A stretch of 64,000 nt of DNA from Deltaproteobacteria bacterium (GTDB lineage: Bacteria; Myxococcota_A; UBA9042; DTJE01), in contig JAKPTZ010000001.1 in NCBI GenBank assembly GCA_029555025.1, positions 9,782 through 73,781 of the forward strand, given 5' to 3'. The notes below the pieces were generated by a model, which saw only the letters and a program-made list of their open reading frames with translations, had not been told where the DNA came from and made no database searches. The position numbers and the translations under genes are program-made. Position 1 is the first letter of the stretch. Each line of letters starts with the position of its first letter. This document shows positions 6,298-45,276 of the stretch, piece by piece.

Positions 6298-6327
6298 CCC
6301 GTCAAAGGGACGGGGTCAACGACAAGG

Positions 6328-7881: not shown

Positions 7882-8047
7882 TTTGAATTCTCCCGCGGGA
7901 AAGCGCGCCGTACCCTACCGGTAGAAGGTATAAATGTCAATCCCGGTGCGTGTGCGCCGCGAGCGTCCGGACACGCGTCCGCGTGCGTAAGGCGTTGCCT
8001 GGTTCGCTCCATTCCCTTGAATTCGCAGAACCGGGGTTTCAAATGAA

Positions 8048-13012: not shown

Positions 13013-13186
13013 GCGGCTTCCCGTCCTTCCACACCCCCCTTTCCCGGACGCTGTTTCTGGATAAAAATCCTGTCATTCTGGTAACAACCGTTGTCGTGCT
13101 TGATTTCCTTATTCCTGCGTGATTTCATTGACAGGTTGTGCCTTTATAGCCGGTTCTGTTCACAAACCTGAATGTGGAGGAGTCCT

Positions 13187-15565
13187 ATGTCTTTTCGCAT
13201 CCGCAAGGCCGCTGTCCTTGGCGGTGGCGTAATGGGTTCGGGCATCGCAGCCCACCTGGCCAACGCCGGAATCAAGACGTATCTGCTTGACATGGTTCCA
13301 CCTGGCGTTGGCCCGGACGCGTCGCATGACGAGCGTTCGGCTTTCGCCCTGAAGGGAATCGAGAATGCCCTGAAGTTCAAGCCAGCGCCGCTGTTTTATG
13401 ACAAGGGCGGGGCGGAACTCGTGTTTGCGGGCAACTTCGACGACGACATTGAGAAGATCGCCGAGTGCGATATCGTTGTCGAAGCGATCGTCGAAAACCT
13501 GGAAATCAAGCGGCAGCTTTTCGCGAAGGTCGTTCCGCACATGAAGCAGGATGCGATCCTTTCGTCGAACACCTCCGGTCTTTCGATCGCCTCGATGGCC
13601 GAGGCACTTCCGTTTTTCATGCGCGACCGCTTCCTGGTGACGCACTTCTTCAATCCGGTTCGTTTCATGAAGCTTCTGGAACTGGTTCCCGGACCGGACA
13701 CCAGCGCCGAGACGCTTCAGATCTGGGCCGATTTCGGTCGCAAGAAGCTGGGAAAGGGCGTTGTTTTTGGAAAGGACACCCCCAATTTCGTCGGTAACCG
13801 CATCGGCATCTACGCGATCGCCAAGACCGTTGAAGCCATGATGGCGGACGGCTTCTCGGTCGAGGAAATCGACTCCATCTTCGGCAAGCCGATGGGACGC
13901 CCGAAGACGGCCGCGTTCAAGACCCTCGACCTTGTCGGCCTTGATGTCTACGCGCATGTTTCGACAACTTGCCTCGAGAAGCTTGAAAACGATCCCGAAA
14001 AGGGCTCTTTCAAGGTTCCGGATTTCATCAATGCCATGATTGCCAAGGGCCTTCTGGGTGCCAAGAAGAAGGCGGGCTTCTATACCAAGGGGCCGAACGG
14101 CGAACGCATGGTCATCGATCCCGCGACGCTTGAATACAAGCCGATCGAGAAGCCGCGGCTTGAGCTTATCGGCATCGTGAAGGGCATGGCCTTGAACGAT
14201 CGCGTCAAGACGATGGTCAAGTCCGACGACCGGGTCGGGAAGCTTGCATGGAAGATCACGGCGCAGACCTTGATTTACGCGGCCAATCGTGTCGGCGAGA
14301 TCGCGGATGACGTCGTCAACATCGACAACGCGATGAAGTGGGGCTTCGGCTGGGAACAGGGCCCGTTCGAGACGTGGGACGCGATTGGCGTCGAGGAAAG
14401 CGTCGCGAGGATGCAGGCTGAAGGCTACCAGGTTCCCGAGACCGTGCTGAAGATGCTGGCTTCGGGTGCGAAGTCGTTCTATGGACGCCAGGGCGTCGAT
14501 AAGACGTTCTTCGACTTCGCGACCGGACAGTACAAGGTTCTCGAGACACCGCCGTGGCAGTTGACCATCAAGGGATTCAAGGATCAGGGCAAGGTCATCA
14601 AGAAGAACATGGGTGCCAGCCTGATTGATATCGGCGACGGCATCGCCTGCCTTGAATTCCACACGAAGATGAACGCTCTGGACGAGGACATCATGTCGAT
14701 GATTCTTGCGTCCTGCGACATCGTCGAGGATCGGTTCGAAGGTCTGGTCGTGACAAACGACGGCGATCACTTCAGCGCCGGCGCCAACATCGCGATGATC
14801 CTGATGGCGGCGAAGACCGGGAACTGGGAACTTCTGGAACAGAGCATCCGCGTCCTGCAGAGCTGCGGTTCCCGCCTGAAGTACTGCGCGAAGCCGACAG
14901 TTGTCGCCCCGTTCGGGATGGCGCTTGGCGGCGGCTGCGAAGTTTCCATCCAGGGCGCCGCCCTGCGTCCGCACGCCGAACTCTACATGGGTCTGGTCGA
15001 AGTCGGCGTCGGCGTGATTCCCGCCGGCGGCGGCTGCAAGGAAATGACTTGCCGCGCCCTGTCCCACATTCCTGGCGACAACGCGGATCTTTCCAGGCTT
15101 CCTTACATCGCCAAGGTGTTCGAGAACATCGCGACCGCGAAGGTCTCGACAAGTGCTTTCGACGCCAGGAGATACGGGTACGTCCGCAAGTATGATCAGA
15201 TAACCATTTCCAGGGATTCATTGCTGCACGACGCGAAGCAGACCGCGCTTGGCATGGCCCGTGCCGGCTATACGCCGCCCGCGGCGCCTGACTGGCTGAT
15301 CATGCCCGGTCGCGACGGCATCGCGTACCTTGAAGCCGGACTGGCCCAGTTCCTGGCCGGCGGAATGATGACGCAGCACGACTACGTGGTCAGCAGCAAG
15401 CTTGCCAACGTCCTTTGCGGCGGCGATGTAAGGCCGGGCACAAGGGTCGATGAGCAGCACCTGCTCGATCTCGAGTGCGAGGCATTCCTGTCGCTGTGCG
15501 GCGAGGAAAAAACCCAGGACCGTATCCAGTACATGCTGGAAAACGGAAAACCCCTGAGAAACTAG
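13187..15565 (+). CDS. fadN: bifunctional 3-hydroxyacyl-CoA dehydrogenase / enoyl-CoA hydratase (FadN-type domain order)
   Basis: The N-terminal NAD Rossmann motif is VLGGGVMGSGIA. The C-terminal crotonase-fold segment reads LVVTNDGDHFSAGANI...GGGCEV...GVGVIPAGGG. I trimmed the start to the ATG at 13187 (MSFRIRK), which has GGAGGA upstream. Confidence 0.88.
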   Translation: MSFRIRKAAVLGGGVMGSGIAAHLANAGIKTYLLDMVPPGVGPDASHDERSAFALKGIENALKFKPAPLFYDKGGAELVFAGNFDDDIEKIAECDIVVEAIVENLEIKRQLFAKVVPHMKQDAILSSNTSGLSIASMAEALPFFMRDRFLVTHFFNPVRFMKLLELVPGPDTSAETLQIWADFGRKKLGKGVVFGKDTPNFVGNRIGIYAIAKTVEAMMADGFSVEEIDSIFGKPMGRPKTAAFKTLDLVGLDVYAHVSTTCLEKLENDPEKGSFKVPDFINAMIAKGLLGAKKKAGFYTKGPNGERMVIDPATLEYKPIEKPRLELIGIVKGMALNDRVKTMVKSDDRVGKLAWKITAQTLIYAANRVGEIADDVVNIDNAMKWGFGWEQGPFETWDAIGVEESVARMQAEGYQVPETVLKMLASGAKSFYGRQGVDKTFFDFATGQYKVLETPPWQLTIKGFKDQGKVIKKNMGASLIDIGDGIACLEFHTKMNALDEDIMSMILASCDIVEDRFEGLVVTNDGDHFSAGANIAMILMAAKTGNWELLEQSIRVLQSCGSRLKYCAKPTVVAPFGMALGGGCEVSIQGAALRPHAELYMGLVEVGVGVIPAGGGCKEMTCRALSHIPGDNADLSRLPYIAKVFENIATAKVSTSAFDARRYGYVRKYDQITISRDSLLHDAKQTALGMARAGYTPPAAPDWLIMPGRDGIAYLEAGLAQFLAGGMMTQHDYVVSSKLANVLCGGDVRPGTRVDEQHLLDLECEAFLSLCGEEKTQDRIQYMLENGKPLRN

Positions 15566-15574
15566 GAGGCTGCG

Positions 15575-16738
15575 ATGAGAGATGTCTATATCGTGACTGC
15601 CGTCAGGACGGCTGTTGGCAAGGCGAAGAAGGGAACCCTGCGCAACGTCAGGCCCGAAACCCTGATCGGCACGGTCGTGAAGGCCGCGGTCGAAAGGGCG
15701 GCGGGGCTTGATCCCCACACCATCGACGACGTGATTGTCGGATGCGCGATGCCGGAAGGTCCGCAGGGAATGAACATCGGCCGCATCGCGGTGTTTGCGG
15801 CCGGGCTGCCCGAGACCGTCACCGGCATGACTGTCAACCGTTTCTGCTCTTCCGGTCTTCAGACGATCGCAATCGGTGCCCAGGCGATTTCCGCCGGCGT
15901 TGCCGATGTCATCGTGGCCGGTGGCGTCGAGAGCATGTCCTCGGTTCCGATGGGCGGATTCAACCTGATGCCCGATCCGGATCTGATGAAGAACATGCCG
16001 CAGGTTTATTCCTCGATGGGGATCACGGCCGAAAATCTGGTGGACAAGTATCAGATCAGTCGCCAGCGCCAGGACGAATTTTCCGTCGCTTCGCACCAGA
16101 AGGCAGGCGTGGCTCTTGCCGACGGCCGCATGAAGGAACAGATTGTCCCGCTGCTGGTTAACAACTTCGATGGAAAGGACCCTGTGGTCTTCGATGTCGA
16201 TGAAGGACCACGGCCAGGTTCGACGGTCGAGGCACTCGGGGCTCTCCGGGCATCGTTCAAGACGGGCGGCAGCGTGACCCCCGGCAACTCGTCACAGGTC
16301 AGCGACGGCGCCGCGGCGGTTCTTCTGATGAGCGAGGACGCTCTGAAGAAGTCCGGCCTGACGCCGATGGCCCGCTTTGTCGATTTCAGGGTCGCCGGCT
16401 GTGGCCCGGAAATCATGGGCATTGGTCCGGCGTACGCCATTCCGAAGCTGTTCGCGGCCACCGGCAAGTCGGATGCCGACATCGGTTTCTATGAACTGAA
16501 CGAGGCGTTCGCGGCCCAGTCGCTGGCCGTGCTCGACCAGCTCAAGGGCGTTGTCGATCCTGCCAAGGTGAATCCGAACGGCGGTGCCATTGCCTTTGGT
16601 CACCCGCTGGGATGCACTGGCGCGAAGCTGACGGTCCAGTCCGTTTATGAAATGAAGCGGATTGGGGCGAAGTACAGCATCGTGTCGATGTGCATCGGTG
16701 GCGGAATGGGCGCGGCCGGACTTCTTGAAAACCTCTGA
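15575..16738 (+). CDS. fadA: acetyl-CoA C-acyltransferase (3-ketoacyl-CoA thiolase)
   Basis: Thiolase motifs are present: the active-site Cys in VNRFCSSGLQ, then GNSSQVSDGAAA, and C-terminal GHPLGCTGA and CIGGGMG. The gene starts 9 nt after fadN. Confidence 0.93.
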   Translation: MRDVYIVTAVRTAVGKAKKGTLRNVRPETLIGTVVKAAVERAAGLDPHTIDDVIVGCAMPEGPQGMNIGRIAVFAAGLPETVTGMTVNRFCSSGLQTIAIGAQAISAGVADVIVAGGVESMSSVPMGGFNLMPDPDLMKNMPQVYSSMGITAENLVDKYQISRQRQDEFSVASHQKAGVALADGRMKEQIVPLLVNNFDGKDPVVFDVDEGPRPGSTVEALGALRASFKTGGSVTPGNSSQVSDGAAAVLLMSEDALKKSGLTPMARFVDFRVAGCGPEIMGIGPAYAIPKLFAATGKSDADIGFYELNEAFAAQSLAVLDQLKGVVDPAKVNPNGGAIAFGHPLGCTGAKLTVQSVYEMKRIGAKYSIVSMCIGGGMGAAGLLENL

Positions 16739-16883
16739 TCCCCTGCATTCATCTATTGTTTAAGCTCTGATTTTTCCCTAAAATTCGCACGATGTGATCC
16801 GTCCTGCGGGCGCGGCCATTCTGGTCCTTCCCGATTTCGGCGCGGTCGCGATTGCCCGATCTTGAAAATTCAGGAGGTTTCTG

Positions 16884-19800
16884 GTGAGAACTGGAACCGC
16901 ATTTGTCATTGCAGTCATTTTCGCGTTGCTTTCCGGTTGCGGCGGCTCGAACCCCGCGTCCGACAACGGACTTCCGGAAGATACCGCATCGGATTACATC
17001 ATCGGGTCGGATCTGAACGGACAGGATGTCCGCCTGGACACGATTTCGCCCGACGGCACCGGTCTGGACGGGGAAGAATCTGATTCTTCACGGGATCAGG
17101 GTCTGCCGCCGGAACCTTGTCGGCCCGGCGAATCGTGCGACGACCATGATCCGTGCACGATCGACGACCTGTGCGACGACGACGAGGAGTGCGCCGGGAC
17201 GCCGGTCGAGGACTGCGACGACGGAATCGAATGCACTTTCGACGAATGCACGACCGAAACCGACTGTTCGCATGAATTGAAGCCGGGATGGTGTTTCGTG
17301 GCGGGCAAGTGCATCGAGGACGGTCAGTCCGATCCTGCCGTGATTTGCAGATCCTGCCAGACGGCACTGAAGACCGATGAACTCCTTCCCGACGACAACA
17401 TGACCTGTGACGACGGCGATGCCTGCACCGTCAACGACAGGTGTCATGAAGGTTTCTGCATTGCCGACGCCCGCGACTGCGGCGATCGCAACTCATGCAC
17501 GGCCGACATGTGCGTTAACGGTTCCTGCGTCAACGAGGCCGTCGAAGGCATGTGCAACGACGAAGACCTTTGTACTGAAAACGACCTCTGTGTCGATGGT
17601 CAGTGCGTCGGTTCACCCATCGGTTGCTGGGATCAGAATCCCTGCACCCAGGATGCCTGTCATCCCGATTTCGGATGTGTCCACGAGTTCCTGGACATAC
17701 CGTGCGACGACGGGAACATCTGCAGCGTCGGGGATCGCTGCTGGCTTGGCAATTGCCTTTCCGGCGACGGAATGAAGGATTGCGACGACGGCAATCAGTG
17801 CACCGACGACGGCTGCGTGCCGGTTCGTGAAGGCGGTTGCGTCCACATCCCGAATACCGCGCCGTGCGACGATGGCGACCCGTGCACGCTGGAAGACAAG
17901 TGCAAGGCCAGCTCGTGCGATCCAGGCAAGGGCGTCCTTGACTGCGACGATGGGAATCCCTGCACGACGGACAGGTGCGAGAAGGGTACCGGATGTGTTC
18001 ATGACAACAACACCGTGCCTTGCGATGACGAGGATCCGTGCACCCTTGACGACGTCTGCGGCGGTGGCGTCTGCAATCCCGGCGTGACGCAGCTTGCCTG
18101 CGATGACGGCAACGAGTGCACCAGCGACTTCTGTGAGGCCGGGATTGGCTGCGTGTATGAAAACAACCTGAATATCTGCGACGACGACAACGTGTGCACG
18201 AACGTATCGACGTGCATGGACGGCGTGTGCATCGGCGAGTCCGCGGTCGATTGCGGCGATGATGATTCCTGCACCCTTGATTACTGCCTGCCGACCGGTG
18301 ACGCGCCCGGCTGCTATCACAAGCCGCTTCCCGAATGCAGGCCGCAGATTGTCATCGACTATCCACCCCGCGCATCCACTCTGAGCAAGAAGACCGGCGA
18401 CCAGATTGTGGTTCGCGGGCATATCGAGTATCCGCCGAACGCAATCCAGGAAGACGGTTATCCGAGCCCGGAAATGGCCATGAGCAAGGTCGTCGTCAAC
18501 GGCCTTGACGTCTGGGTCGATCCCAGGACGAAGCCGTGGTCATTCCAGAGCACGATGACGCTGCAGCAGGGGATGAATCCCATTGTTGCGTACGGCCAGG
18601 CCAATGCGGTGCCGGCATACAAGGATTACGTCGTCCAGTCTCTTTACTACTCGGACTCGTGGTTCCCGGTCAGTCACGCCAATCCGGCCGCCGGGATGGT
18701 CAGCGACGGCGTGAAGATATTCCTGGGCAAGACGGTCTGGGACGACAACAACACGGCGACCGCCGACGACATCGCGACCCTGTTGACCAACATCCTGAAA
18801 ACACTCAGCCTTTCCACGCTTATCAAGAATCCGGTCACCAAGGGCGAGTTCGGCTGGTGCGATTACAAGGTCAACCTGAAGAACATGAAATACGGGACGC
18901 CGTCGATTGACCTGATTCCCGACTGGGGAAAGATAAAGGTCAAGGTCGTGATCCCCAGGTTCAGCGTGGATATCGACGTCCCGATAAGCGGTTTCGCGTG
19001 TCCCGATTTCAGCGGGGATGCCTCGGCGACTTCGATAACGATTAATGCCGACTTGAACCTTGCAATCGATCCGCAGGGAAAGCCGCTTGCCACCATTTCC
19101 AATCCGGATGTCGTGGTTTCCGGGCTTGATGTCGATGTCGATGGCATCTGGGGCTTCCTTTTCAACTGGATCATCGACTTCTTCGAAGACAACTTTGCCG
19201 ACATGATCGAGGACGAGTTCGAGACCCAGCTAGCCGGCCAGCTTTCCGAACTGGTCAGGGGCGCCGTGGCCGATCTGGCCCTTGACCCGGAATTCCCGGT
19301 TCCCGAACTTCTGCCGGGAATGACGCCGGTCACGCTCCAGATGAAGAGCAAGTTTTCCACGATATCCATCACGCCCGAAGGCAGCGATATCGGTCTTGCC
19401 GCGGTCGTCCTGCCGGATGCCGCCCAGACGCCGCCGGCGGTGCTGCTCGGTTCTATCGGTCGCGGCGCCTGCCTGGGAACCGATCCCGGGATTCCCGCGT
19501 TCCCCCACACATACGAAATGGGGCTGATGGCCAAGGATGATTTCCTTAACGAGGCCCTTTACGCAATCTGGGCGTCGAATGGACTGAAGATTCCGGTCGG
19601 GCCCGAAATGCTCGGCGATTTTGACCTTTCCGAGTTCGGGATTTCCAATCTCAGCCTGAATGTCGATTTCCAGTTGCCGCCGTTGATATCGGACTGCAAT
19701 CTGGAACACAAGATGTTCTTCGAGGCCGGGGATATCAGGGTGAACGCGGGCATGAAGCTGCTCGGCTCCCAGGTTGACATGGTGATGTACGCCAGCCTGA

Positions 19801-20132
19801 TCGCCGAGGCCCGCATTGTCCTGGTGCCGGGCGCGACCGGAACAGAGGTCGGCATTCAGATCGAGACGCCGCTTTTCATCGATATTGAAGTCGCCCAGAT
19901 TGCCGGGGGGCTTGTCGGTGCCGAAGACACGATCAGCTCGCTGATCCGGACGGTCGCCCTTCCGATGGTTCTTGATCTTCTGTCCGGGGACACGCTGGCT
20001 TCGTTCCAGCTTCCAAGCATCGACTTGAGCTCGCTGGCCGAGGGATTCCCGGCCGGGTCGGTGATCGAAATCGACATGAAGGAAGTCAATCGTTCCAGGG
20101 GCGCGACCATAGTTCTTGGCAATGTGAAGTAA
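16884..20132 (+). CDS. Cys-rich repeat lipoprotein with C-terminal BPI/LBP/CETP-like (TULIP) two-lobed region, paralog 1
   Basis: GTG start with AGGAGG 6 nt upstream and a lipobox (ALLSGC). An acidic linker is followed by about 14 units of the type CDDGNxCTxDxC....GC.H / CDDGDPCTxxDxC..G.C at roughly 17115-18350. A short beta-sandwich-like segment follows. The last 477 aa (18699-20129) show BPI-like landmarks (see findings). Confidence 0.85.
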   Translation: MRTGTAFVIAVIFALLSGCGGSNPASDNGLPEDTASDYIIGSDLNGQDVRLDTISPDGTGLDGEESDSSRDQGLPPEPCRPGESCDDHDPCTIDDLCDDDEECAGTPVEDCDDGIECTFDECTTETDCSHELKPGWCFVAGKCIEDGQSDPAVICRSCQTALKTDELLPDDNMTCDDGDACTVNDRCHEGFCIADARDCGDRNSCTADMCVNGSCVNEAVEGMCNDEDLCTENDLCVDGQCVGSPIGCWDQNPCTQDACHPDFGCVHEFLDIPCDDGNICSVGDRCWLGNCLSGDGMKDCDDGNQCTDDGCVPVREGGCVHIPNTAPCDDGDPCTLEDKCKASSCDPGKGVLDCDDGNPCTTDRCEKGTGCVHDNNTVPCDDEDPCTLDDVCGGGVCNPGVTQLACDDGNECTSDFCEAGIGCVYENNLNICDDDNVCTNVSTCMDGVCIGESAVDCGDDDSCTLDYCLPTGDAPGCYHKPLPECRPQIVIDYPPRASTLSKKTGDQIVVRGHIEYPPNAIQEDGYPSPEMAMSKVVVNGLDVWVDPRTKPWSFQSTMTLQQGMNPIVAYGQANAVPAYKDYVVQSLYYSDSWFPVSHANPAAGMVSDGVKIFLGKTVWDDNNTATADDIATLLTNILKTLSLSTLIKNPVTKGEFGWCDYKVNLKNMKYGTPSIDLIPDWGKIKVKVVIPRFSVDIDVPISGFACPDFSGDASATSITINADLNLAIDPQGKPLATISNPDVVVSGLDVDVDGIWGFLFNWIIDFFEDNFADMIEDEFETQLAGQLSELVRGAVADLALDPEFPVPELLPGMTPVTLQMKSKFSTISITPEGSDIGLAAVVLPDAAQTPPAVLLGSIGRGACLGTDPGIPAFPHTYEMGLMAKDDFLNEALYAIWASNGLKIPVGPEMLGDFDLSEFGISNLSLNVDFQLPPLISDCNLEHKMFFEAGDIRVNAGMKLLGSQVDMVMYASLIAEARIVLVPGATGTEVGIQIETPLFIDIEVAQIAGGLVGAEDTISSLIRTVALPMVLDLLSGDTLASFQLPSIDLSSLAEGFPAGSVIEIDMKEVNRSRGATIVLGNVK

Positions 20133-20174
20133 CGGCTTCGACGTCCGAAGTCCTGCCGAATGGAGAAACGACCG

Positions 20175-23100
20175 ATGAGAAGAGTGCCGTTTGGTTCAAT
20201 GCTGGCCGCGATGATCCTTGCGATTCCGGCAATCACGGGTTGTGGCGGAACCGTCGATCCCGGACAGGATCTGGTTCAGCCGGAAGACGTGTCCGGGAAC
20301 GACGTCATTTCGCCCGAGGATGTTGAAGACATTTTCGATGCAGGGCGTGACGCGGCCGTGCCGGATGTCGGAACGGATCAGGGCCAGGAAACAGGTGGGC
20401 CCGATATCGCGCTGCCCGATTGTCCTTCCGGCCAGGCGTGCGATGACGGCGATTCGTGCACCATCAACGATCAGTGCCAGTCCGACGGCGAGACGTGCGT
20501 CGGAATCGTCGTGGAATCTTGCAGCGACAACCTGGCCTGCACTTATGATTCGTGTGTTTCCGAAACCGAGTGCACCAACGAGCTGAAGCCGGGATGGTGC
20601 CTGGTTGAAGGCGAATGCATCGAGGATGGCGAGTTCTCGGCGGCACAACCCTGCATGTCCTGCATCACCGCCCTGGGAACCGATCGTCTTTTCCCGGACG
20701 ACGCCGGCGTCTGCGACGACGGGAACGCCTGCACGACCGGCGACGCATGTCATGCGGGCGCCTGTGTCGGGGTCGCCATGGACTGCGACGACGGCAATCC
20801 GTGCACGACGGATGTGTGTGACAACGGAACCTGTCTTAACAACGCGACGGACGGTGCCGCGTGCGACGACGGCAATCGCTGCACTTTCGACGACATCTGC
20901 ACGATGAACGTCTGCGGCGGAACTGCGGTCGAGTGCGATGACGGTAATCTTTGCACCGACGATTCATGCGACCCGGAGTTCGGATGCATGAATATCAACA
21001 ACGAAGCCGGTTGCGACGACGGCAACCTGTGCACCGTCGGCGATACCTGTTTCCTTGGCGAGTGCGCGTCGGGAACGGAACCGCTTTTCTGCGACGATTC
21101 AAACATCTGTACCGATGACGGTTGCGTGCCGTCGAAGGGTTGCGTGGCGATACCGAATACGAGCCCGTGCGACGACGGTGATCCCTGTACCGTCAACGAC
21201 TTCTGCCAGGCTTCGGAATGCCTGGCCGGCAAGTTGCCCCTGGATTGCGACGACAACAACCTTTGCACCGATGAGGTCTGCACGAAAGGCATCGGCTGCG
21301 AGTACACGAACAACGAACTCGAGTGTGACGACAACAACGAGTGCACGGTTGGCGACACGTGCGGCGGCGGAACCTGCCGGCCCGGCGTCGGCGAACTCTT
21401 CTGCGATGACGGCAACGTCTGCACCGACGACGCCTGCGTGATTGGCGAAGGCTGCGTCAACGTCCCGAACAATGACGAGTGCGAAGACAACAACGTCTGC
21501 ACCGGCATGGGAACATGCGTTGACGGCTCGTGTCAGCGGGGATCTTACAACTACGACTGCGACGATGGTTTGCAGTGCACCGCCGATTCCTGCCACCCGG
21601 TTGACGGATGCCAGCACAGCCTGGTCAACAGCGCCGACTGCCGTCCACAGGCCGTCATCGACTTCCCGGAAAGGGCCGCCACGCTCAACGGCGCCAGGGA
21701 CATCACGGTAACCGGCCATGTCGATCTGGGACTTGACGGAATCCCGGTTCCGTTCGTGACCATTAACGGTAACCAGTACGCCCTTGGACTCGATGGAAGG
21801 TTTTCAGCTCCCAGAACTTCCGACCAGGGATTCAACGGCCTGGTAGTCGAGGTCGAAGACATCAACGGCATGAAGGATCGCGTGGTTCAGTCGTACTACT
21901 ACTCGACCGAATGGTTCCCGTTCAGTGAAACCGACCCGTCGGTTTCGAATGTAAACGACGGTCTTGTGCTTTTCATTGGCCCCGAGGTCTGGGACGACAA
22001 CGACACCTCCACTTACGACGACGTCGCAACGATTATCTCGACTTTCGTCGATGACATCGATCTGATGTCGATGATTTCGAACCCGGTCGAGGAGGGTGAC
22101 GACGGCTTCGTGTGCGGCGATCATCGAATCAACATCAACAGCATCACCTTCGGAACGATTGCGGTTGATCTGACGCCGGTAAACGGCGGGCTTTACATGA
22201 AGGTGACAATCCCGAACATCAAGATCGGCATCAGTGGAAAGTACTGCCACGTCAACTTCTCGGGCACCGCGAACGCAAGCAGCATCGTGGTCAACTCGAC
22301 CCTGAACATCTCGATCGATCCGGCCACCGGCAAGCCGGTAATCGCCATGACTGGAACCAATTCCAGCGTCAACGGGTTGTCAATCAATATCAATAACTTC
22401 CCGGGCTTCCTTGAAGACATCCTGATGTTCTTCCTTGAAGACACGCTGACCGGCATGATCGAGGACACCATCGAGGATCAGATTGCTGGGCTGATTCCGG
22501 ATCTTCAGGAAGCACTCGAGGGGCTGGCGATCGACCAGACCTTCGAGATTCCAGCGCTTTTCGACGGCGGTTCGCCGATGACGGTTACCCTTGATTCCGG
22601 TCTTTCGTCCATCGTCTTCACGCCGGCCGGCGGCACGCTGGGAATGAAGGCCGCCTTCAGTGCCCCGAAGGGAACCACGCACGAGAAGCTGGGCTCGTTG
22701 GGGCGTGCCAATTGCCTGCTTGGCGGTCTTGAGGCGAAGCCGGTGTTCCCGGTCGGTCCCAGTTCGCCCCAGCTTGAGCTTGGATTGAAGGACGATCTGC
22801 TGAACGAACTGGTATTCGCCCTTTACTGGGGTGGCGCACTCAATCTGCCGATTCCGGCGGAAATGCTTGGCGATTCCCTGGGTGACTACGGCATCACCGA
22901 CATGGTCGCGAACATCGATTTCCTGTTGCCGCCCGTCCTTTCGGCCTGCAATTCGCAGGGCATCCTGAAGGTTGCCGTCGGCGACGTGATGCTGGACGCG
23001 ACCTTGAAACTGTTCGGAGCTCCGCTGACCATGAAGATTTATGTCAGCCTGATGGCCGGGGCCAACATCATAGCCCGTCAGACCGAGACCGGTTCGACGA

Positions 23101-23390
23101 TGCTCGGCGTTGCGGTCAACTATCCGGACTTCATCGACATGGAGATCGCGAGTCTGGTCGGGAACCTTTCCGGGGCCGAGGACACGATCAAGGGGCTGGT
23201 CATGGACACGCTGCTGCCAAGCCTGCTCGGCACGCTTGACGGCGTCACGCCGCTGGTCGAATTCGAGATCCCGGCAATCGACATGTCTTCGTTCATCGAC
23301 GGCGTGCCGGCCGGTTCCGAGTTGAGCATCATGGTAAGGGAAGTTCTGCGCGCCGGGGCGTACACCGTCGCGTCGGGCACGGTTCAGTAG
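20175..23390 (+). CDS. Cys-rich repeat lipoprotein with C-terminal BPI/LBP/CETP-like region, paralog 2
   Basis: ORF 20160..23390. The ATG at 20175 has GGAGA 8 nt upstream (MRRVPFGSMLAAMILAIPAITGC lipobox). The architecture matches paralog 1 and stays collinear through the C-terminal region (21951-23387). Confidence 0.85.
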   Translation: MRRVPFGSMLAAMILAIPAITGCGGTVDPGQDLVQPEDVSGNDVISPEDVEDIFDAGRDAAVPDVGTDQGQETGGPDIALPDCPSGQACDDGDSCTINDQCQSDGETCVGIVVESCSDNLACTYDSCVSETECTNELKPGWCLVEGECIEDGEFSAAQPCMSCITALGTDRLFPDDAGVCDDGNACTTGDACHAGACVGVAMDCDDGNPCTTDVCDNGTCLNNATDGAACDDGNRCTFDDICTMNVCGGTAVECDDGNLCTDDSCDPEFGCMNINNEAGCDDGNLCTVGDTCFLGECASGTEPLFCDDSNICTDDGCVPSKGCVAIPNTSPCDDGDPCTVNDFCQASECLAGKLPLDCDDNNLCTDEVCTKGIGCEYTNNELECDDNNECTVGDTCGGGTCRPGVGELFCDDGNVCTDDACVIGEGCVNVPNNDECEDNNVCTGMGTCVDGSCQRGSYNYDCDDGLQCTADSCHPVDGCQHSLVNSADCRPQAVIDFPERAATLNGARDITVTGHVDLGLDGIPVPFVTINGNQYALGLDGRFSAPRTSDQGFNGLVVEVEDINGMKDRVVQSYYYSTEWFPFSETDPSVSNVNDGLVLFIGPEVWDDNDTSTYDDVATIISTFVDDIDLMSMISNPVEEGDDGFVCGDHRININSITFGTIAVDLTPVNGGLYMKVTIPNIKIGISGKYCHVNFSGTANASSIVVNSTLNISIDPATGKPVIAMTGTNSSVNGLSININNFPGFLEDILMFFLEDTLTGMIEDTIEDQIAGLIPDLQEALEGLAIDQTFEIPALFDGGSPMTVTLDSGLSSIVFTPAGGTLGMKAAFSAPKGTTHEKLGSLGRANCLLGGLEAKPVFPVGPSSPQLELGLKDDLLNELVFALYWGGALNLPIPAEMLGDSLGDYGITDMVANIDFLLPPVLSACNSQGILKVAVGDVMLDATLKLFGAPLTMKIYVSLMAGANIIARQTETGSTMLGVAVNYPDFIDMEIASLVGNLSGAEDTIKGLVMDTLLPSLLGTLDGVTPLVEFEIPAIDMSSFIDGVPAGSELSIMVREVLRAGAYTVASGTVQ

Positions 23391-23427: not shown

Positions 23428-25581
23428 ATGCGCAAGCTGCTTTTTGCTTCAATGATCGGATTCGGGATGCTCGTGGCCTGTGGACCCGGTGAATCGGGAA
23501 CCGACGAGGGCACCGGCGTTGACGTCGGCTACGAGGATGTCAATCAGCCTGTCGATAACGGCCAGGATGTCCAGCCGGACACGGCTCGTCCCGACCTGAA
23601 CCAGCCGGATGATGGTCCGGTCGATGTCGGCCAGGATCACGGGATTGATACGAATCCCGGCGATTCTGTGGTTCTTCCGGACAACGGCGACTGCCTGGCC
23701 GGCGATCCCTGTGACGACGGCAATCCGTGCACCTGGGGCGAGACATGCGGCGAGTCAGGCGAATGTGGCGGCGGCACGCACTACACCTGCGACGATGGCC
23801 GGGCCTGCACCGATGACACATGTGACGGACTTGGAAACTGCCTGTTCGTCATGAAGGCCGGAACCTGCCTGATCAACGGAATCTGCCGCGACAAAGACGC
23901 CGCGGATCCCGAGGATCCCTGTTTCGTCTGCAAGCCGGGCACAAGTGTCAGCGAATGGTCAAAGGCACCCGACGAAACCGCGTGCGACCCGACGGTAACT
24001 CTGGGACGTTGCGAGGATTCGCCCGGCGGCACCTGCGTGGACGGCGTATGCGTTGCTTCGACGATTGTGCCGAAGGGGTGCGATGACAGTGATCCGTGCA
24101 CCGAGGATTCCTGCAATCCGGCGGTCGGCTGCATCAATACGCCTGTCAGCAGCGGGGAATGCGTTCTTGAAGACAAGTGCAAGCCAGGCTACTGCTTCCA
24201 GGGCGTGTGCATCGTTCCCGAAGACAGTTCATGCGATGACGGCAACTCATGCACCCTGGATTCCTGTGACGACGTCAAGGGATGCCAGCACAGCCCGATC
24301 GAGGAAGCCGCCTGCGACGACGGCGACGAGTGCACGTTCCAGGATTCCTGTTTCGAGGGCGTGTGCAACGGCCGGCCCCAGAACTGCGACGATGGCAACG
24401 TGTGTACCGAGGACGGTTGCGACAGCATCACCGGATGCTGGCACGACCTGGCAACCAATCCCTGCTGCATCGGCGGCGTTTCCGTTTGCGACGACAATAA
24501 TCCGTGCACCAATGACGATTGCGACCCCGATACGTTCGAGTGCTTCCACAACGACAACACGGCCGCGTGCAGCGACGGGAATCCGTGCACCGTCGGCGAT
24601 TCCTGCGACGAAGGTGATTGCTTCGGCTCGGCGAAGAACTGTTCGGACGGAAATCAGTGCACTTCCGATTACTGTGACGGCGGTCTCTGCCTGCATGACA
24701 TCCTTTCCGGGACTGCCTGTGATGATGGTCGCGATTGCTCGGTCAACGATCACTGCGAGGCCGGCCTCTGCGTCGCCGACGAGTCCGGCTGTGTCTGTCA
24801 GCCGACCTTCTATCCGGCGGTGTCCAAGTTCGTAACGATGGCGATTTCGACCAACGGAAAGACCGGTTCCGGCCTCGATCTCGATATGAAGCCGACGACC
24901 TGCGCGCCCGCGGAGGATTGCTGCTGTGGCATCGATAACGCTCTTGGTCCCGTGGCCGGCATGAAGGCGGCTCAGGACGGCATCAAGGACGCCATGGCCG
25001 AGGGCAGCATCACGCTTCTGTTTGAACACCGGGAGATCAAGACCGACGGGACGCCTTATACCTTGGCGTTCTATTCCGGTGAACTGGCCCCGACAAACGA
25101 ATCCTGCAACTTCCTGACCCAGGATTGCGACTATGTTGTCGAGCCGATGATGATCACCGACGAGTGTCTGCCGCTGGTCACTTTGAACAATGCGAAGATC
25201 GTCGGCAACAAGTTGACCGCGGGCGGGCTTGATTACGTGTTCCCGTTCGACCTTCCGCTGCTTGAAGGAATCAATCTTCACGTGGATCTGTATTTCACCA
25301 GGGTGGAAGCCAACGTAACCGTGTCCGGCGGGCGTGTCACGTCCATGCAGGGCATCCTGGGCGGCGCGATTCCGAAGCAGCAGATTTCGGACGCGGTGCA
25401 GGCCGTCCCGGACGAGACATGGGCCGACCTGCCGGTTGACAAGGCAACCGTTATGATGCTGCTTGACCTGGTCGTTATTCCCGATATCGATGGCGACAAG
25501 GACGGCATCATGGAATCGGCGTCAATCGGGATTCAGTTCACTGCTATTCCAGGCGAGATCGTCGGCCGCAAGGTTGACTGA
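23428..25581 (+). CDS. Cys-rich repeat lipoprotein, paralog 3, with a different uncharacterised C-terminal domain
   Basis: ATG with GGAGGA 5 nt upstream and a lipobox (GMLVAC). It has the same acidic linker and CDDGNxCTxDxC repeat array (about 23690-24790). The C-terminal region of about 260 aa (CVCQPTFYP...EDCCCGIDNALGP...) is unrelated to the BPI-like region of paralogs 1 and 2. Confidence 0.85.
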   Translation: MRKLLFASMIGFGMLVACGPGESGTDEGTGVDVGYEDVNQPVDNGQDVQPDTARPDLNQPDDGPVDVGQDHGIDTNPGDSVVLPDNGDCLAGDPCDDGNPCTWGETCGESGECGGGTHYTCDDGRACTDDTCDGLGNCLFVMKAGTCLINGICRDKDAADPEDPCFVCKPGTSVSEWSKAPDETACDPTVTLGRCEDSPGGTCVDGVCVASTIVPKGCDDSDPCTEDSCNPAVGCINTPVSSGECVLEDKCKPGYCFQGVCIVPEDSSCDDGNSCTLDSCDDVKGCQHSPIEEAACDDGDECTFQDSCFEGVCNGRPQNCDDGNVCTEDGCDSITGCWHDLATNPCCIGGVSVCDDNNPCTNDDCDPDTFECFHNDNTAACSDGNPCTVGDSCDEGDCFGSAKNCSDGNQCTSDYCDGGLCLHDILSGTACDDGRDCSVNDHCEAGLCVADESGCVCQPTFYPAVSKFVTMAISTNGKTGSGLDLDMKPTTCAPAEDCCCGIDNALGPVAGMKAAQDGIKDAMAEGSITLLFEHREIKTDGTPYTLAFYSGELAPTNESCNFLTQDCDYVVEPMMITDECLPLVTLNNAKIVGNKLTAGGLDYVFPFDLPLLEGINLHVDLYFTRVEANVTVSGGRVTSMQGILGGAIPKQQISDAVQAVPDETWADLPVDKATVMMLLDLVVIPDIDGDKDGIMESASIGIQFTAIPGEIVGRKVD

Positions 25582-25596
25582 CCGATCGTTTCCACC

Positions 25597-26214
25597 CTAG
25601 AAGTCGCAGCCGCGTTCTTCAAACCTGGCGGATGCCTGAAGCACCTTTTCGACGTAATCGACGTTCTGGGGAAGCTCCAGATTCTGTCTGGCCCTGCCCG
25701 GCATTCCGTGGCCGGCGTTATACCCGGAAAGCCCCAGGTAGATGGAATCCTTGTAGTATTTCAGGAAGGCCTTGATTACACGGGCGCCGCAACGCAGGTT
25801 TTCGTATGGATCGTTAAGCGGCCCGCAACGTTTTGCCCTGGCCGTTGCCGGCATGCACTGGGTCAGGCCGACGGCGCCGACAGGGGATTTCACGTCGTTC
25901 CTGAAGTTGGATTCCACTCGAACGATGCCGACAAGCAGCGACGTCTCGATGTCGAATTCGCTGGCGACCCTGGTTATCAGGGGAAGGAGCTCCCGGCAGC
26001 GTTCGGTCGCCGCGCTTGTGGCCGACCCTGTCCGCGAGGCGCCCGAATTCTTGACGGTCGGTCGTTTGGAATTCAGCGATGCCGTCGGGACGTGCCTTTT
26101 CCCATGCCCGGATGCGGCGGCAACCCGGGTGCCGGAAGTTCCGGCGTGGCAGCCCGCACCAAGGCCAAGAAGGGCGATAAGAATGATCGACGGCAGTGTG
26201 ATTGCCCGTTTCAT
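25597..26214 (-). CDS. lytic transglycosylase (SLT domain) lipoprotein
   Basis: This is the C-terminal 205 aa of ORF 25597..27216(-). It has a lipobox (LLGLGAGC) and the SLT motifs VRVESNF, GLTQCMP and YNAG. The start is the ATG at 26214 (MKRAITL). The longer upstream ORF overlaps rlmI and is rejected. Confidence 0.85.
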   Translation of the reverse strand: MKRAITLPSIILIALLGLGAGCHAGTSGTRVAAASGHGKRHVPTASLNSKRPTVKNSGASRTGSATSAATERCRELLPLITRVASEFDIETSLLVGIVRVESNFRNDVKSPVGAVGLTQCMPATARAKRCGPLNDPYENLRCGARVIKAFLKYYKDSIYLGLSGYNAGHGMPGRARQNLELPQNVDYVEKVLQASARFEERGCDF

Positions 26215-26280
26215 GGTGATAATCGTAAGATCGCGCCGGGCGGAAAGCCAAGTTAAGGCCAATTTCAGGGGTGCCATCCA

Positions 26281-42044: not shown

Positions 42045-42101
42045 ACACGGCGCCGGACTATGTCCAGCATCCAAGCTTACCTGGTGAAACGAGGACTTCA
42101 G

Positions 42102-45256: not shown

Positions 45257-45276
45257 CGTCCGCATTGGAGGTTTGA

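What the first reader, a model, noticed from the sequence alone, without database searches (positions are those of the whole stretch)
18699..20129. C-terminal 477 aa of paralog 1 follow the two-lobed BPI/LBP/CETP (TULIP) lipid-binding architecture
I read this region against human BPI as I remember it, and the landmark order is conserved. (1) VKIFLGKTVWDD corresponds to VVVRISQKGLDY. (2) CDYKVNLKNMKYGTPSIDLIPDWGKIKVKVVIPRFSVDIDV corresponds to [41 protein letters not shown]. (3) FSGDASATSITINADLNLAIDPQGKPLATISNPDVVVSGLDVDVDGIWGFLFNWIIDFFEDNFADMIEDEFETQLAGQLSELV corresponds to [79 protein letters not shown]. (4) A second lobe opens with DFLNEALYAIWASNGLKIPV, corresponding to [21 protein letters not shown]. 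(5) The end, ...LPMVLDLLSGDTLASFQLPSIDL, corresponds to ...VLPRVNEKLQKGFPLP. The overall length is also close to mature BPI (roughly 450 aa). A complete two-barrel BPI-like module fused to a Cys-repeat stalk on a bacterial lipoprotein is not an arrangement I know to have been described. It would point to binding or extraction of LPS, phospholipid or other lipids at the cell surface or across the periplasm.
Basis: inference. Interest (0 to 1): 0.9.

Follow-up and report, generated by a model that had tools for sequence, protein, structure and literature searches.

The report
Stalked bacterial BPI-like lipid-binding lipoprotein
The last 477 residues of this Myxococcota lipoprotein are a real relative of the human lipid- and LPS-binding proteins BPI/LBP/CETP, held on a long cysteine-rich stalk; the protein family is large and unstudied, but bacterial BPI-like proteins as such were already known.

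Summary
Window 18699-20129 encodes residues 606-1082 of a 1082-aa lipoprotein (16884-20132).

- **Sequence evidence:** A family profile finds only mouse LBP (E=1.9e-11) and human BPI (E~6e-8) among 177,635 PDB sequences.
- **Structure evidence:** An AlphaFold2 model (pLDDT 83, pTM 0.79) matches BPI, LBP and CETP over its full length (Foldseek E=4e-19 to 9e-16). All further significant matches are other TULIP proteins.
- **Anatomy:** lipobox signal, acidic linker, about 16 four-Cys repeats, a beta-sandwich, then the double TULIP. A 39%-identical paralog follows in tandem.
- **Partner gene:** A third lipoprotein has the same stalk and a 265-aa head with no known fold (pLDDT 94). It lies directly downstream of the BPI-like gene in 34 of 57 informative related loci.
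- **Family:** at least 1588 clusters, nearly all from uncultured Myxococcota MAGs, and every name found is 'hypothetical protein'.
- **Differences from BPI:** the head is strongly acidic, lacks BPI's conserved disulfide and falls below Pfam's cut-off.
- **Prior art:** bacterial double TULIPs are already described (DUF4403, an AlphaFold-database cluster, Bdellovibrio TipA).

This is a new variant of a known kind. Lipid binding is inferred, not shown.

The parts
16872..16877 (+). Shine-Dalgarno-like AGGAGG, 6 nt before the GTG start of paralog 1
   Evidence: Read directly from the sequence.
16884..20132 (+). Paralog 1: 1082-aa lipoprotein. Order of parts: signal peptide, linker, Cys-repeat stalk, beta-sandwich, BPI-like double TULIP.
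   Evidence: ORF list; Pfam Dicty_CTDC E=3.6e-20 and LBP_BPI_CETP E=7e-4.
16884..16940 (+). Lipoprotein signal peptide MRTGTAFVIAVIFALLSGC with lipobox L-S-G-C (Cys19); Gly at +2
   Evidence: Read from the translation. 76 of 118 full-length family representatives have a lipobox-like motif in the first 45 aa (permissive regex).
16941..17117 (+). Acidic, low-complexity linker (aa 20-78, net charge -12)
   Evidence: Composition.
17118..18338 (+). Cys-rich repeat stalk (aa 79-485): 62 Cys, about 16 units of four Cys, core motif CxDxNxCTxDxC, net charge -79
   Evidence: Cys positions and motif scan; Pfam PF00526 Dicty_CTDC; no solved homologue by sequence.
18339..18698 (+). Beta-sandwich (Glucodextran_B-like / Ig-like) plus short linker (aa 486-605), always found directly before the TULIP head in this family
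   Evidence: PF09136 hits at this position in paralog 2, in 4 of 23 members and in 9 of 9 Cys-poor family members.
18699..19418 (+). BPI-like N-lobe (aa 606-845): strand, short helix A, five long strands, 40-residue helix B, and central-sheet strands. Probable disulfide C659-C706.
   Evidence: AF2 secondary structure; HMMER/hhalign alignment to BPI/LBP residues ~53-200; Foldseek; Cys positions.
19419..20129 (+). BPI-like C-lobe (aa 846-1082), the most conserved part of the family (LGSxGR..C, DDxLN, LPP..C, GD). Invariant Cys863 and Cys938.
   Evidence: Invariant columns of A2; AF2 model; full-length Foldseek alignment to BPI; start of the lobe aligned to BPI 250-287.
20160..23390 (+). Paralog 2: 1076-aa lipoprotein (lipobox I-T-G-C) with the same architecture, 27 nt after paralog 1. 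Stalk and sandwich are 46% identical to paralog 1; the head is 39% identical.
   Evidence: (PF01273 E=1.8e-5).
21951..23387 (+). BPI-like double TULIP of paralog 2 (aa 598-1076)
   Evidence: Family HMM match E=6e-187; coordinates.
23428..25581 (+). Paralog 3 ('p3'): 717-aa lipoprotein (lipobox L-V-A-C) with a homologous Cys-repeat stalk but a different head, 37 nt after paralog 2
   Evidence: It lies directly downstream of the BPI-like gene in 34 of 57 informative related loci.
24778..25578 (+). p3 head domain (~265 aa): confident model with no known fold match; conserved DIDGDKDG...S motif (possible Ca2+ loop)
   Evidence: AF2 pLDDT 94, pTM 0.90; Foldseek PDB best E=0.077; BFVD best E=0.37; no PDB sequence hit; invariant and near-invariant columns.

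Best explanation
Paralog 1, and the tandem paralog 2, is a membrane-tethered lipid-binding protein. Its head is a true homologue of the eukaryotic BPI/LBP/CETP double-TULIP module.

Shown here: a lipoprotein signal peptide; an acidic linker; a ~400-aa stalk of about 16 four-Cys repeats; a beta-sandwich; and a 477-aa head made of two tubular helix/beta-sheet/helix lobes joined by a central sheet, as in BPI.

Inferred:
- The protein is acylated at Cys19 and sorted to the outer membrane, most likely to the cell surface.
- The stalk acts as a spacer that holds the head away from the anchoring membrane.
- The two lobes enclose apolar pockets that take up acyl-chain lipids (phospholipid or other amphiphiles) from a membrane or particle the cell touches, such as another cell, vesicles or detritus, and hand them on. 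In this it resembles CETP/PLTP and Bdellovibrio TipA more than BPI.
- It works together with the co-transcribed third lipoprotein (p3). p3 has the same kind of stalk and would present its unknown-fold head near the BPI-like heads, as an adaptor, dock or recipient.

Because the head is strongly acidic, cargo capture is not expected to rely on BPI's cationic grip on LPS phosphates.
For: - **Homology:** Pfam PF01273 at E=7e-4 and 1.8e-5. 8 of 23 family members hit it and one member passes the gathering cut-off (30.4 bits). phmmer finds LBP. The family profile finds LBP at E=1.9e-11 and BPI at ~6e-8, as the only significant PDB hits. hhalign gives Prob 93%.
- **Fold:** AF2 pLDDT 83, pTM 0.79, with the helix/strands/helix pattern twice. 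Foldseek gives BPI 4e-19 (TM 0.57/0.61, 514 columns), LBP 1e-18, CETP 8.6e-16, then only TULIP proteins.
- **Tethering and export:** lipoboxes in all three genes and 62 stalk cysteines that need an oxidising compartment.
- **Stalk as a spacer:** across the family the beta-sandwich plus TULIP module is constant, while the stalk is either Cys repeats or Big_1-type Ig repeats.
- **Operon and partner:** gaps of 27 and 37 nt on one strand. p3 lies directly downstream in 34 of 57 informative loci, down to ~28% head identity.
- **Accessory role:** the family was found almost only in Myxococcota/Bradymonadia MAGs, with several loci per genome.
- **Precedent:** TipA, a secreted bacterial double TULIP, carries lipids, binds and destabilises bilayers and uses an operon-encoded beta-sandwich adaptor (bioRxiv 10.1101/2025.09.09.675085).
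Against: - No lipid-binding data exist, and I could not inspect model coordinates, so hydrophobic pockets are assumed from the fold.
- The window proteins fall below Pfam's gathering score (21.6 and 24.9 bits against 28.8) and do not hit the C-domain model PF02886.
- BPI's conserved Cys135-Cys175 disulfide is absent.
- The net charge of -36/-46 is the opposite of BPI's cationic N-lobe.
- Surface exposure is a guess. By default a diderm lipoprotein faces the periplasm.
- The stalk geometry was not modelled.
- The link to p3 rests on synteny only, and 23 of 57 informative loci lack p3.
- TM-scores of ~0.6 show substantial divergence, or a different angle between the lobes.
Confidence: 0.7

Rival explanations
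1. Predation or antibacterial weapon in the strict BPI sense. The head binds LPS or lipid A of other Gram-negative cells, perturbs or strips their outer membrane and helps kill or feed on them. The stalk lets it reach the prey surface.
For: The closest solved relatives are the LPS binders LBP and BPI. TipA of the predator Bdellovibrio destabilises bilayers and is secreted into prey. The family sits in Myxococcota/Bradymonadia, lineages that from general knowledge include many predators. There are several paralogs per genome.
Against: The head is strongly acidic (net -36/-46, family median -48), whereas BPI and LBP bind LPS through a cationic N-lobe tip (established knowledge). The protein is tethered to its producer rather than released. 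The lifestyle of these uncultured organisms is unknown. No toxin, lipase or immunity genes lie next to it.
Confidence: 0.25
2. Housekeeping lipid traffic inside the cell's own envelope. The lipoprotein is anchored on the periplasmic face of one membrane, and the stalk spans the periplasm so that the TULIP head shuttles lipids to or from the other membrane. This is the role proposed for YceB and DUF4403.
For: A lipoprotein anchor with Gly at +2. By default diderm lipoproteins face the periplasm. Levine 2019 predicts periplasmic roles for bacterial TULIPs. A lytic transglycosylase gene is a recurrent neighbour, in 13 loci.
Against: The phyletic range is narrow and copy number varies, which does not fit a core envelope function. 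The interchangeable stalks are Big_1 Ig repeats and Dicty-type Cys repeats, which from general knowledge are typical of surface or extracellular proteins. A mature protein of about 1060 aa would have to thread through peptidoglycan. Synteny with the transglycosylase gene is limited to the closer relatives.
Confidence: 0.2
3. The TULIP fold is used here for something other than lipid carriage, for example as an adhesin tip, a surfactant-like protein (compare latherin) or a scaffold.
For: Some TULIP-fold proteins have no open pocket (Wong & Levine 2017, section 3 heading; latherin appears among the fold matches). The rest of the protein looks like an adhesin (stalk plus Ig-like domain).
Against: The best matches are the full-length lipid carriers BPI, LBP and CETP, not the short single-lobe proteins. 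The long helix B and the long strands are retained. The most conserved residues lie inside the head, not at exposed tips as far as sequence can tell.
Confidence: 0.1
4. Chance resemblance, or an artefact of composition or of the structure predictor.
For: Single-sequence Pfam scores are below the gathering cut-off. The alignment used for AF2 had only 23 sequences.
Against: Independent methods agree: HMMER profile E=1.9e-11 with no off-target hits, hhalign Prob 93% and Foldseek E=4e-19 with all 33 matches at E<=0.001 being TULIP-fold proteins.
Confidence: 0.01

Closest known systems
Eukaryotic BPI / LBP / CETP / PLTP family (Pfam PF01273 + PF02886; PDB 1EWF, 1BP1, 4M4D, 2OBD)
   Same: About 450-480 aa, extracytoplasmic, with two pseudo-symmetric TULIP lobes and a central sheet. 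N-lobe homology is detectable by sequence (E=1.9e-11). The fold matches over its full length.
   Different: It is bacterial, and it is the C-terminal head of a ~1080-aa lipoprotein rather than a free secreted glycoprotein. It is strongly acidic rather than cationic (BPI/LBP). The conserved Cys135-Cys175 disulfide is absent and other Cys pairs are present. It falls below the Pfam gathering cut-offs, with ~15% identity in the structural alignment.
Bdellovibrio bacteriovorus TipA/TipB (Bd2538/Bd2539), a solved bacterial BPI-like double TULIP with a beta-sandwich adaptor (bioRxiv 10.1101/2025.09.09.675085)
   Same: A bacterial, exported double TULIP. It is associated with a beta-sandwich (fused here, separate in TipB) and with an operon partner. 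The paper reports lipid carriage and membrane binding for TipA.
   Different: TipA is a soluble ~570-aa protein that forms a hairpin-mediated homodimer and was annotated DUF2785. The window proteins are stalked lipoproteins with no DUF2785 hit. Their operon partner is a ~265-aa head of unknown fold on its own stalk, not a small C2-like sandwich.
DUF4403 (PF14356), predicted bacterial full-length BPI-like pseudodimer (Levine 2019, PMC6791001)
   Same: A bacterial protein of ~460 aa predicted to have two TULIP lobes and the BPI-type beta-meander interface.
   Different: There is no Pfam DUF4403 hit at E<=1. The published DUF4403-N to BPI-N link is HHsearch probability 63%. The present family reaches HMMER E=1e-11 and hhalign 93% against BPI/LBP, so it appears closer to the eukaryotic family, although the methods are not strictly comparable.
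Bacterial AlphaFold-database models that cluster with human BPI (e.g. A0A2D5ZNG0; Barrio-Hernandez et al. 2023, PMC10584675)
   Same: Uncharacterised bacterial proteins with a BPI-like predicted structure (TM 0.81 to human BPI). The figure legend's list of organism abbreviations, which covers all panels, includes a 'Deltaproteobacteria bacterium'. The present family includes marine MAG proteins such as MBR57665.1, so A0A2D5ZNG0 could be a member.
   Different: Membership of A0A2D5ZNG0 in this family could not be checked. That paper does not describe the lipoprotein/stalk architecture, the tandem paralogs or the p3 partner.
Single- or other-architecture bacterial TULIPs: E. coli YceB (3L6I), Clostridium P47 and OrfX1-3
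   Same: The same superfamily fold. P47 and OrfX3 are the next-best fold matches (E 1e-8 to 1e-10), and YceB is also a lipoprotein.
   Different: The matches are much weaker (TM ~0.3 or less), the domain arrangements differ, and no sequence-level hit was found.

Membership tests
BPI/LBP/CETP family (Pfam PF01273 / PF02886) | N-terminal domain matches PF01273 at or above the gathering score (28.8 bits) | tested here: not met
   Full-length paralog 1 scores 19.7 bits (21.6 for the head alone) and paralog 2 scores 24.9 bits. The E-values are still significant (7e-4, 1.8e-5). 8 of 23 relatives hit the model, and one relative (P0021) passes at 30.4 bits.
BPI/LBP/CETP family (Pfam PF01273 / PF02886) | C-terminal domain matches PF02886 | tested here: not met
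   No hit for the window proteins at E<=1. Only 1 of 23 relatives hits, at E=1.3e-3. The start of the C-lobe aligns to BPI 250-287 only within the longer hhalign alignment.
BPI/LBP/CETP family (Pfam PF01273 / PF02886) | Profile-level sequence homology to solved family members | tested here: met
   Family profile against PDB: LBP E=1.9e-11, BPI E~6e-8, no other significant hit. hhalign Prob 93%, E=3.2e-7.
BPI/LBP/CETP family (Pfam PF01273 / PF02886) | Two pseudo-symmetric elongated lobes (helix A, long twisted sheet, helix B) joined by a central beta-sheet | tested here: met
   On a predicted structure only. AF2 pLDDT 83, pTM 0.79, with the expected order of elements. Foldseek aligns 514-547 columns to BPI, LBP and CETP at E=4e-19 to 9e-16, TM 0.44-0.61.
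BPI/LBP/CETP family (Pfam PF01273 / PF02886) | Conserved N-lobe disulfide (BPI Cys135-Cys175) | tested here: not met
   In the HMMER and hhalign alignments the columns opposite BPI C135 and C175 hold no Cys. The head has other pairs instead: C659/C706 and the invariant C863/C938.
BPI/LBP/CETP family (Pfam PF01273 / PF02886) | Apolar pockets that hold lipid acyl chains; measurable lipid binding or transfer | not testable with these tools
   Model coordinates could not be analysed and no experiment was possible.
BPI/LBP subgroup (LPS binders) | Cationic N-lobe that binds the anionic groups of lipid A | tested here: not met
   N-lobe net charge -19; whole head -36 (paralog 1) and -46 (paralog 2); family median -48, pI ~4.1.
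TULIP superfamily | Tubular fold: a long helix wrapped by a highly curved antiparallel sheet; nearest structural neighbours are TULIPs | tested here: met
   All 33 PDB matches with E<=0.001 are TULIP-fold proteins, or complexes and fusions containing one (BPI, LBP, CETP, OrfX3, P47, OrfX2, SPLUNC1/BPIFA1, latherin, beta-carotene-binding protein, Der p 7); Takeout, JHBP and YceB follow at E up to ~0.01.
TipA-type bacterial double TULIP (Bdellovibrio Bd2538) | Sequence relationship to TipA (annotated DUF2785) and its hairpin/helix dimerisation insert | tested here: inconclusive
   There is no DUF2785 hit at E<=1, but the TipA paper itself calls that annotation a mis-annotation. No TipA structure appeared among the Foldseek matches and no TipA sequence was available to me, so no direct comparison was possible.
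TipA-type bacterial double TULIP (Bdellovibrio Bd2538) | Operon-encoded beta-sandwich adaptor (TipB) that opens the N-lobe | tested here: inconclusive
   A beta-sandwich is fused directly upstream of the head throughout the family. A conserved operon partner exists, but its head is ~265 aa with no fold match. No interaction was modelled.
DUF4403 (PF14356) | Match to the Pfam DUF4403 model | tested here: not met
   Not listed at E<=1 for any of the three window proteins, nor at E<=0.01 among the 23 family members.
Bacterial lipoproteins | Signal peptide ending in a lipobox [LVI][ASTVI][GAS]C | tested here: met
   LSGC (paralog 1), ITGC (paralog 2) and LVAC (p3), each after a basic n-region and a hydrophobic core. 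Acylation itself is not testable here.

The most novel reading that the evidence does not exclude
This Myxococcota family is the closest prokaryotic sequence relative of the eukaryotic BPI/LBP/CETP proteins. On this reading the animal innate-immunity and plasma lipid-transfer double TULIP shares a direct origin (vertical or by ancient transfer) with a bacterial cell-surface device. The three-gene unit, two stalked BPI-like heads plus a stalked head of a previously unseen fold, would be a new kind of contact-dependent lipid-extraction machine. Uncultured, probably predatory Myxococcota would use it to pull lipids out of other cells or vesicles.
Probability: 0.15. Interest if true: 0.8.

Novelty: new variant of a known kind. 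Interest (0 to 1): 0.55.

Why it matters
- **Evolutionary link:** BPI, LBP, CETP and PLTP are central to human innate immunity and lipoprotein metabolism. Their evolutionary roots and the general way double TULIPs load and unload lipid are still debated. This family has at least 1588 clusters at 50% identity, all unnamed. It links to the eukaryotic proteins by plain profile searches, more directly than the published DUF4403 link, so it could be used to root the family.
- **Natural variation to work with:** the head is the same throughout while the stalk is swapped (Cys repeats or Ig repeats), and about 60% of informative loci carry a conserved operon partner of unknown fold.
- **Parallel with TipA/TipB:** together with the Bdellovibrio work, this suggests that stalked or secreted BPI-like proteins with partner domains may recur in the way some bacteria handle foreign or envelope lipids.
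- **Limit:** the existence of bacterial BPI-like proteins is not itself new.

Tried and rejected
- **Genome scan with A2:** A1 was used instead.
- **Folding the p3 head from locus-derived sequences:** Homologues were fetched with a protein search and A4 was folded.
- **NCBIfam:** no model hits any of the three lipoproteins.
- **PDB sequence searches:** the stalk gave nothing. The sandwich region gave only designed Kelch-repeat proteins through summed sub-significant repeats (each stretch E>20), which I treat as spurious.
- **p3 head:** no PDB sequence hit, no PDB or viral fold match, and no profile similarity to the BPI-like head. It is therefore not a third, degenerate TULIP as far as these tools can see.
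- **Functional clue from neighbours:** fadB/fadA lie directly upstream, but that adjacency holds only in the three closest loci. Clustering all flanking ORFs found no widely shared neighbour other than p3, an SLT transglycosylase gene and a methyltransferase gene (13 loci each). Recurrent neighbours in the distant loci (PAD_porph, Ser/Thr kinase, epimerase) give no lipid link.
- **Promoter and terminator scan of the operon:** no sigma-70 consensus site, and fewer terminator-like sites than in shuffled sequence.
- **Literature:** searches for this architecture or for Myxococcota BPI-like proteins found nothing specific.
- **A0A2D5ZNG0:** its identity could not be checked in the supplement of the Nature paper.
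- **Word-indexed protein searches:** they recovered only 3 and 9 relatives. The exhaustive HMM search was needed to see the family.

Full report
**1. What is at the coordinates**

Window 18699-20129 on the + strand is an uninterrupted 477-codon stretch. It forms residues 606-1082 of a 1082-aa ORF (16884..20132, GTG start) with an AGGAGG box 6 nt upstream. The protein begins MRTGTAFVIAVIFALLSGC, a signal peptide ending in a lipobox.

After the signal peptide come:
- an acidic linker (aa 20-78);
- a 407-aa region with 62 cysteines in about 16 four-Cys units with the core CxDxNxCTxDxC (Pfam Dicty_CTDC, E=3.6e-20);
- a ~120-aa beta-sandwich region, which scores as Glucodextran_B-like in paralog 2 and in relatives;
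- the 477-aa segment in question.

A second gene follows 27 nt downstream (20160..23390, 1076 aa). It has the same architecture and is 46% identical in the stalk and 39% in the head. A third gene follows 37 nt further on (23428..25581, 717 aa). It has a homologous stalk (33% identity) but a different C-terminal head. All three have lipoboxes.

**2. Is the BPI resemblance real?**

Yes. The evidence, from the least to the most sensitive method:
- Pfam's LBP_BPI_CETP N-domain model hits paralog 1 at E=7e-4 and paralog 2 at E=1.8e-5, over profile positions ~45-165.
- phmmer of the 477 aa against all PDB sequences returns a single protein, mouse LBP (E=1.3e-3), with query 105-173 opposite LBP 107-175.
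- An exhaustive HMM search of 1.84 billion cluster representatives found 1588 relatives at E<=1e-3 and 410 at E<=1e-30.
- A profile of 23 diverse, mostly head-only members (A2) searched against PDB returns LBP at E=1.9e-11 and the two BPI entries at ~6e-8. The next hit is at E=0.36.
- hhalign of A2 against the human BPI sequence gives Prob 93%, E=3.2e-7 over 221 columns, BPI 53-287.

**3. Structure**

AlphaFold2 on A2, with no templates, gave mean pLDDT 83 and pTM 0.79. No segment fell below pLDDT 50. The order of elements is: a strand, short helix A, five long strands, a 40-residue helix B, central-sheet strands, then a second unit of helix, long strands and helix that returns to the central sheet. 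This is the double-TULIP plan.

Foldseek against PDB ranks BPI 1EWF first (E=4e-19, TM 0.57/0.61, 514 aligned columns). Then come 1BP1, LBP 4M4D (1e-18) and CETP 2OBD (8.6e-16). After these come OrfX3, P47, SPLUNC1/BPIFA1, latherin, Takeout, JHBP and YceB. All 33 matches with E<=0.001 are TULIP-fold proteins, or complexes and fusions containing one.

**4. How it differs from BPI proper**

- The window proteins stay under Pfam's gathering score (19.7-24.9 bits against 28.8) and do not hit the C-domain model. One relative passes the N-domain cut-off (30.4 bits).
- The columns opposite BPI's conserved Cys135 and Cys175 hold no cysteine. The head has C659/C706 in the N-lobe and the family-invariant C863/C938 in the C-lobe instead.
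- The head is strongly acidic: net -36 in paralog 1, -46 in paralog 2, family median -48, pI ~4.1. BPI and LBP grip LPS with a cationic N-lobe (established knowledge), so that particular mechanism is unlikely here. A CETP/PLTP/TipA-like carrier role fits better.
- Sequence conservation is highest around the start of the C-lobe (LGSxGR..C, DDxLN, LPP..C, GD), not in the region that resembles BPI.

**5. The family and its genomic setting**

A scan of one genome per GTDB species returned 74 loci. Nearly all come from uncultured Myxococcota / 'Deltaproteobacteria' / Bradymonadia MAGs from lakes, digesters and marine water. One distant Gemmatimonadota homologue also appeared, and several genomes hold 2-3 of the loci. 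This scan used two conserved peptide patterns and is biased towards closer relatives.

Every database name I could retrieve is 'hypothetical protein'.

With HMMs built here, the head lies at the C-terminus of proteins of roughly 600-1600 aa. Many family representatives start with a lipobox (76 of 118). The region before the head is either Cys-rich (36 of 118) or Cys-poor. In nine Cys-poor members examined, four have Big_1-type Ig matches (all below Pfam's cut-off). All nine still carry the Glucodextran_B-like sandwich immediately before the TULIP head.

So the constant module is sandwich plus double TULIP, and the stalk is interchangeable. I take this as support for a spacer role.

The p3-type gene lies directly downstream on the same strand in 34 of 57 loci with enough flank. 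This holds down to ~28% head identity. Eleven loci have the tandem pair of BPI-like genes, as in the window. The other 23 loci form a subfamily without p3.

No other neighbour is broadly conserved:
- fadB/fadA upstream occur only in the three closest loci.
- An SLT transglycosylase gene and a methyltransferase gene recur in 13 loci each.

The rest of the window is ordinary chromosome: class II RNR, RpoD, FtsY, PFOR, pilB/T/C and others.

**6. The partner head**

The last ~265 aa of the third lipoprotein fold with very high confidence (pLDDT 94, pTM 0.90). Even so, the domain has:
- no significant fold match in PDB (best E=0.077, TM<=0.27) or in viral models;
- no Pfam, NCBIfam or PDB sequence hit;
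- no profile similarity to the BPI-like head.

It carries a conserved (invariant or near-invariant) DxDxDxDG...S motif (DIDGDKDG), which suggests a Ca2+ loop. Its function is unknown. Its conserved operon position and matching stalk make it the obvious candidate partner.

**7. Most likely mechanism**

Shown: homology and fold of the head, the lipoprotein signal, the domain order, the operon arrangement and its conservation.

Inferred:
- acylation and sorting to the outer membrane (Gly at +2), probably with surface exposure, because the stalk modules are of extracellular type and the family is lineage-restricted and multi-copy;
- a stalk that acts as a spacer;
- uptake of acyl-chain lipids into the two lobes from a contacted membrane or particle;
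- cooperation with the paralogous head and with p3.

The rivals are a BPI-style anti-Gram-negative weapon (weakened by the acidic charge), periplasm-spanning housekeeping lipid transport (weakened by the distribution and the stalk types), and a non-lipid role. Chance resemblance is excluded.

**8. Comparison with what is known, and novelty**

Bacterial TULIPs have been known since YceB and P47/OrfX (PMC5507252). The closer precedents are:
- Levine 2019 predicted DUF4403 as a bacterial full-length BPI-like pseudodimer (PMC6791001).
- Barrio-Hernandez et al. 2023 reported that human BPI clusters with bacterial AlphaFold models such as A0A2D5ZNG0 (PMC10584675).
- Caulton et al. solved Bdellovibrio TipA, a BPI-like double TULIP opened by the operon-encoded sandwich TipB. 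They also noted Foldseek homologues with fused beta-rich domains (bioRxiv 10.1101/2025.09.09.675085).

The present proteins hit neither DUF4403 nor DUF2785. They are detectably closer to eukaryotic BPI/LBP than the published DUF4403 figure (HHsearch 63%).

I found no description of the following:
- the architecture of lipoprotein, Cys-repeat or Ig stalk, sandwich and head;
- the tandem duplication;
- the conserved partner of unknown fold;
- the size of the family.

Hence: a new variant of a known kind. Interest 0.55.

Noticed in passing
window 24778-25578 (C-terminal head of the gene at 23428-25581): A ~265-aa domain folds at pLDDT 94 / pTM 0.90 but has no significant fold match in PDB or BFVD and no Pfam, NCBIfam or PDB sequence hit. 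It carries a conserved DIDGDKDG...S motif (possible Ca2+ loop). It may be a new fold, and its gene is a conserved operon partner of the BPI-like genes.
   Followed up: yes
window 18339-18698 and 21639-21950; family members P0012, P0021, P0024, P0029, P0035, P0037, P0039, P0043, P0044: A Glucodextran_B-like beta-sandwich always sits directly before the double TULIP, whatever the stalk type (Cys repeats or Big_1 Ig repeats). This recalls the TipB sandwich and the fused sandwich in a Planctomyces double TULIP described in the TipA preprint.
   Followed up: partly
window 13172-16738: FadB-like 3-hydroxyacyl-CoA dehydrogenase/enoyl-CoA hydratase and thiolase genes lie directly upstream on the same strand, 145 nt before paralog 1. 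A link between lipid uptake and beta-oxidation is tempting, but the adjacency is conserved only in the three closest loci, L002, L003 and L016.
   Followed up: partly
loci L025-L030, L033, L038, L039, L041, L046, L049-L058, L064, L066-L068: A second subfamily of BPI-like lipoproteins (25-31% identical to paralog 1) has no p3 gene downstream. Some of these loci share other neighbours, for example a ~1000-aa protein with a Porphyromonas-type peptidyl-arginine deiminase domain.
   Followed up: partly
window 25597-27216 (- strand) and 26281-27471 (+ strand): A convergent SLT lytic-transglycosylase gene and a PUA/SAM-methyltransferase gene follow the operon. Both recur in 13 related loci. The listed ORFs overlap by almost 1 kb on opposite strands (26281-27216), so at least one listed start, probably the SLT start, is too far upstream.
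   Followed up: partly
L027, L029, L039, L059 (record titles): MAGs titled 'uncultured Enterobacteriaceae bacterium' carry this otherwise Myxococcota-restricted family. This most likely reflects wrong taxonomic labels on third-party assemblies. L012 is titled Oligoflexales, and L064 (25% identity) is a Gemmatimonadota chromosome.
   Followed up: no
window 5893-8046 (+) and 33594-35198 (-): Two long ORFs (717 and 534 aa) have no Pfam or NCBIfam match. I did not check whether they are real genes.
   Followed up: no
window 42060-46494: A type IV pilus-like set of genes (PilB-like and PilT-like ATPases and a PilC-like platform protein) is followed by a histidine kinase gene. This fits a surface-motile Myxococcota-type organism.
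   Followed up: no
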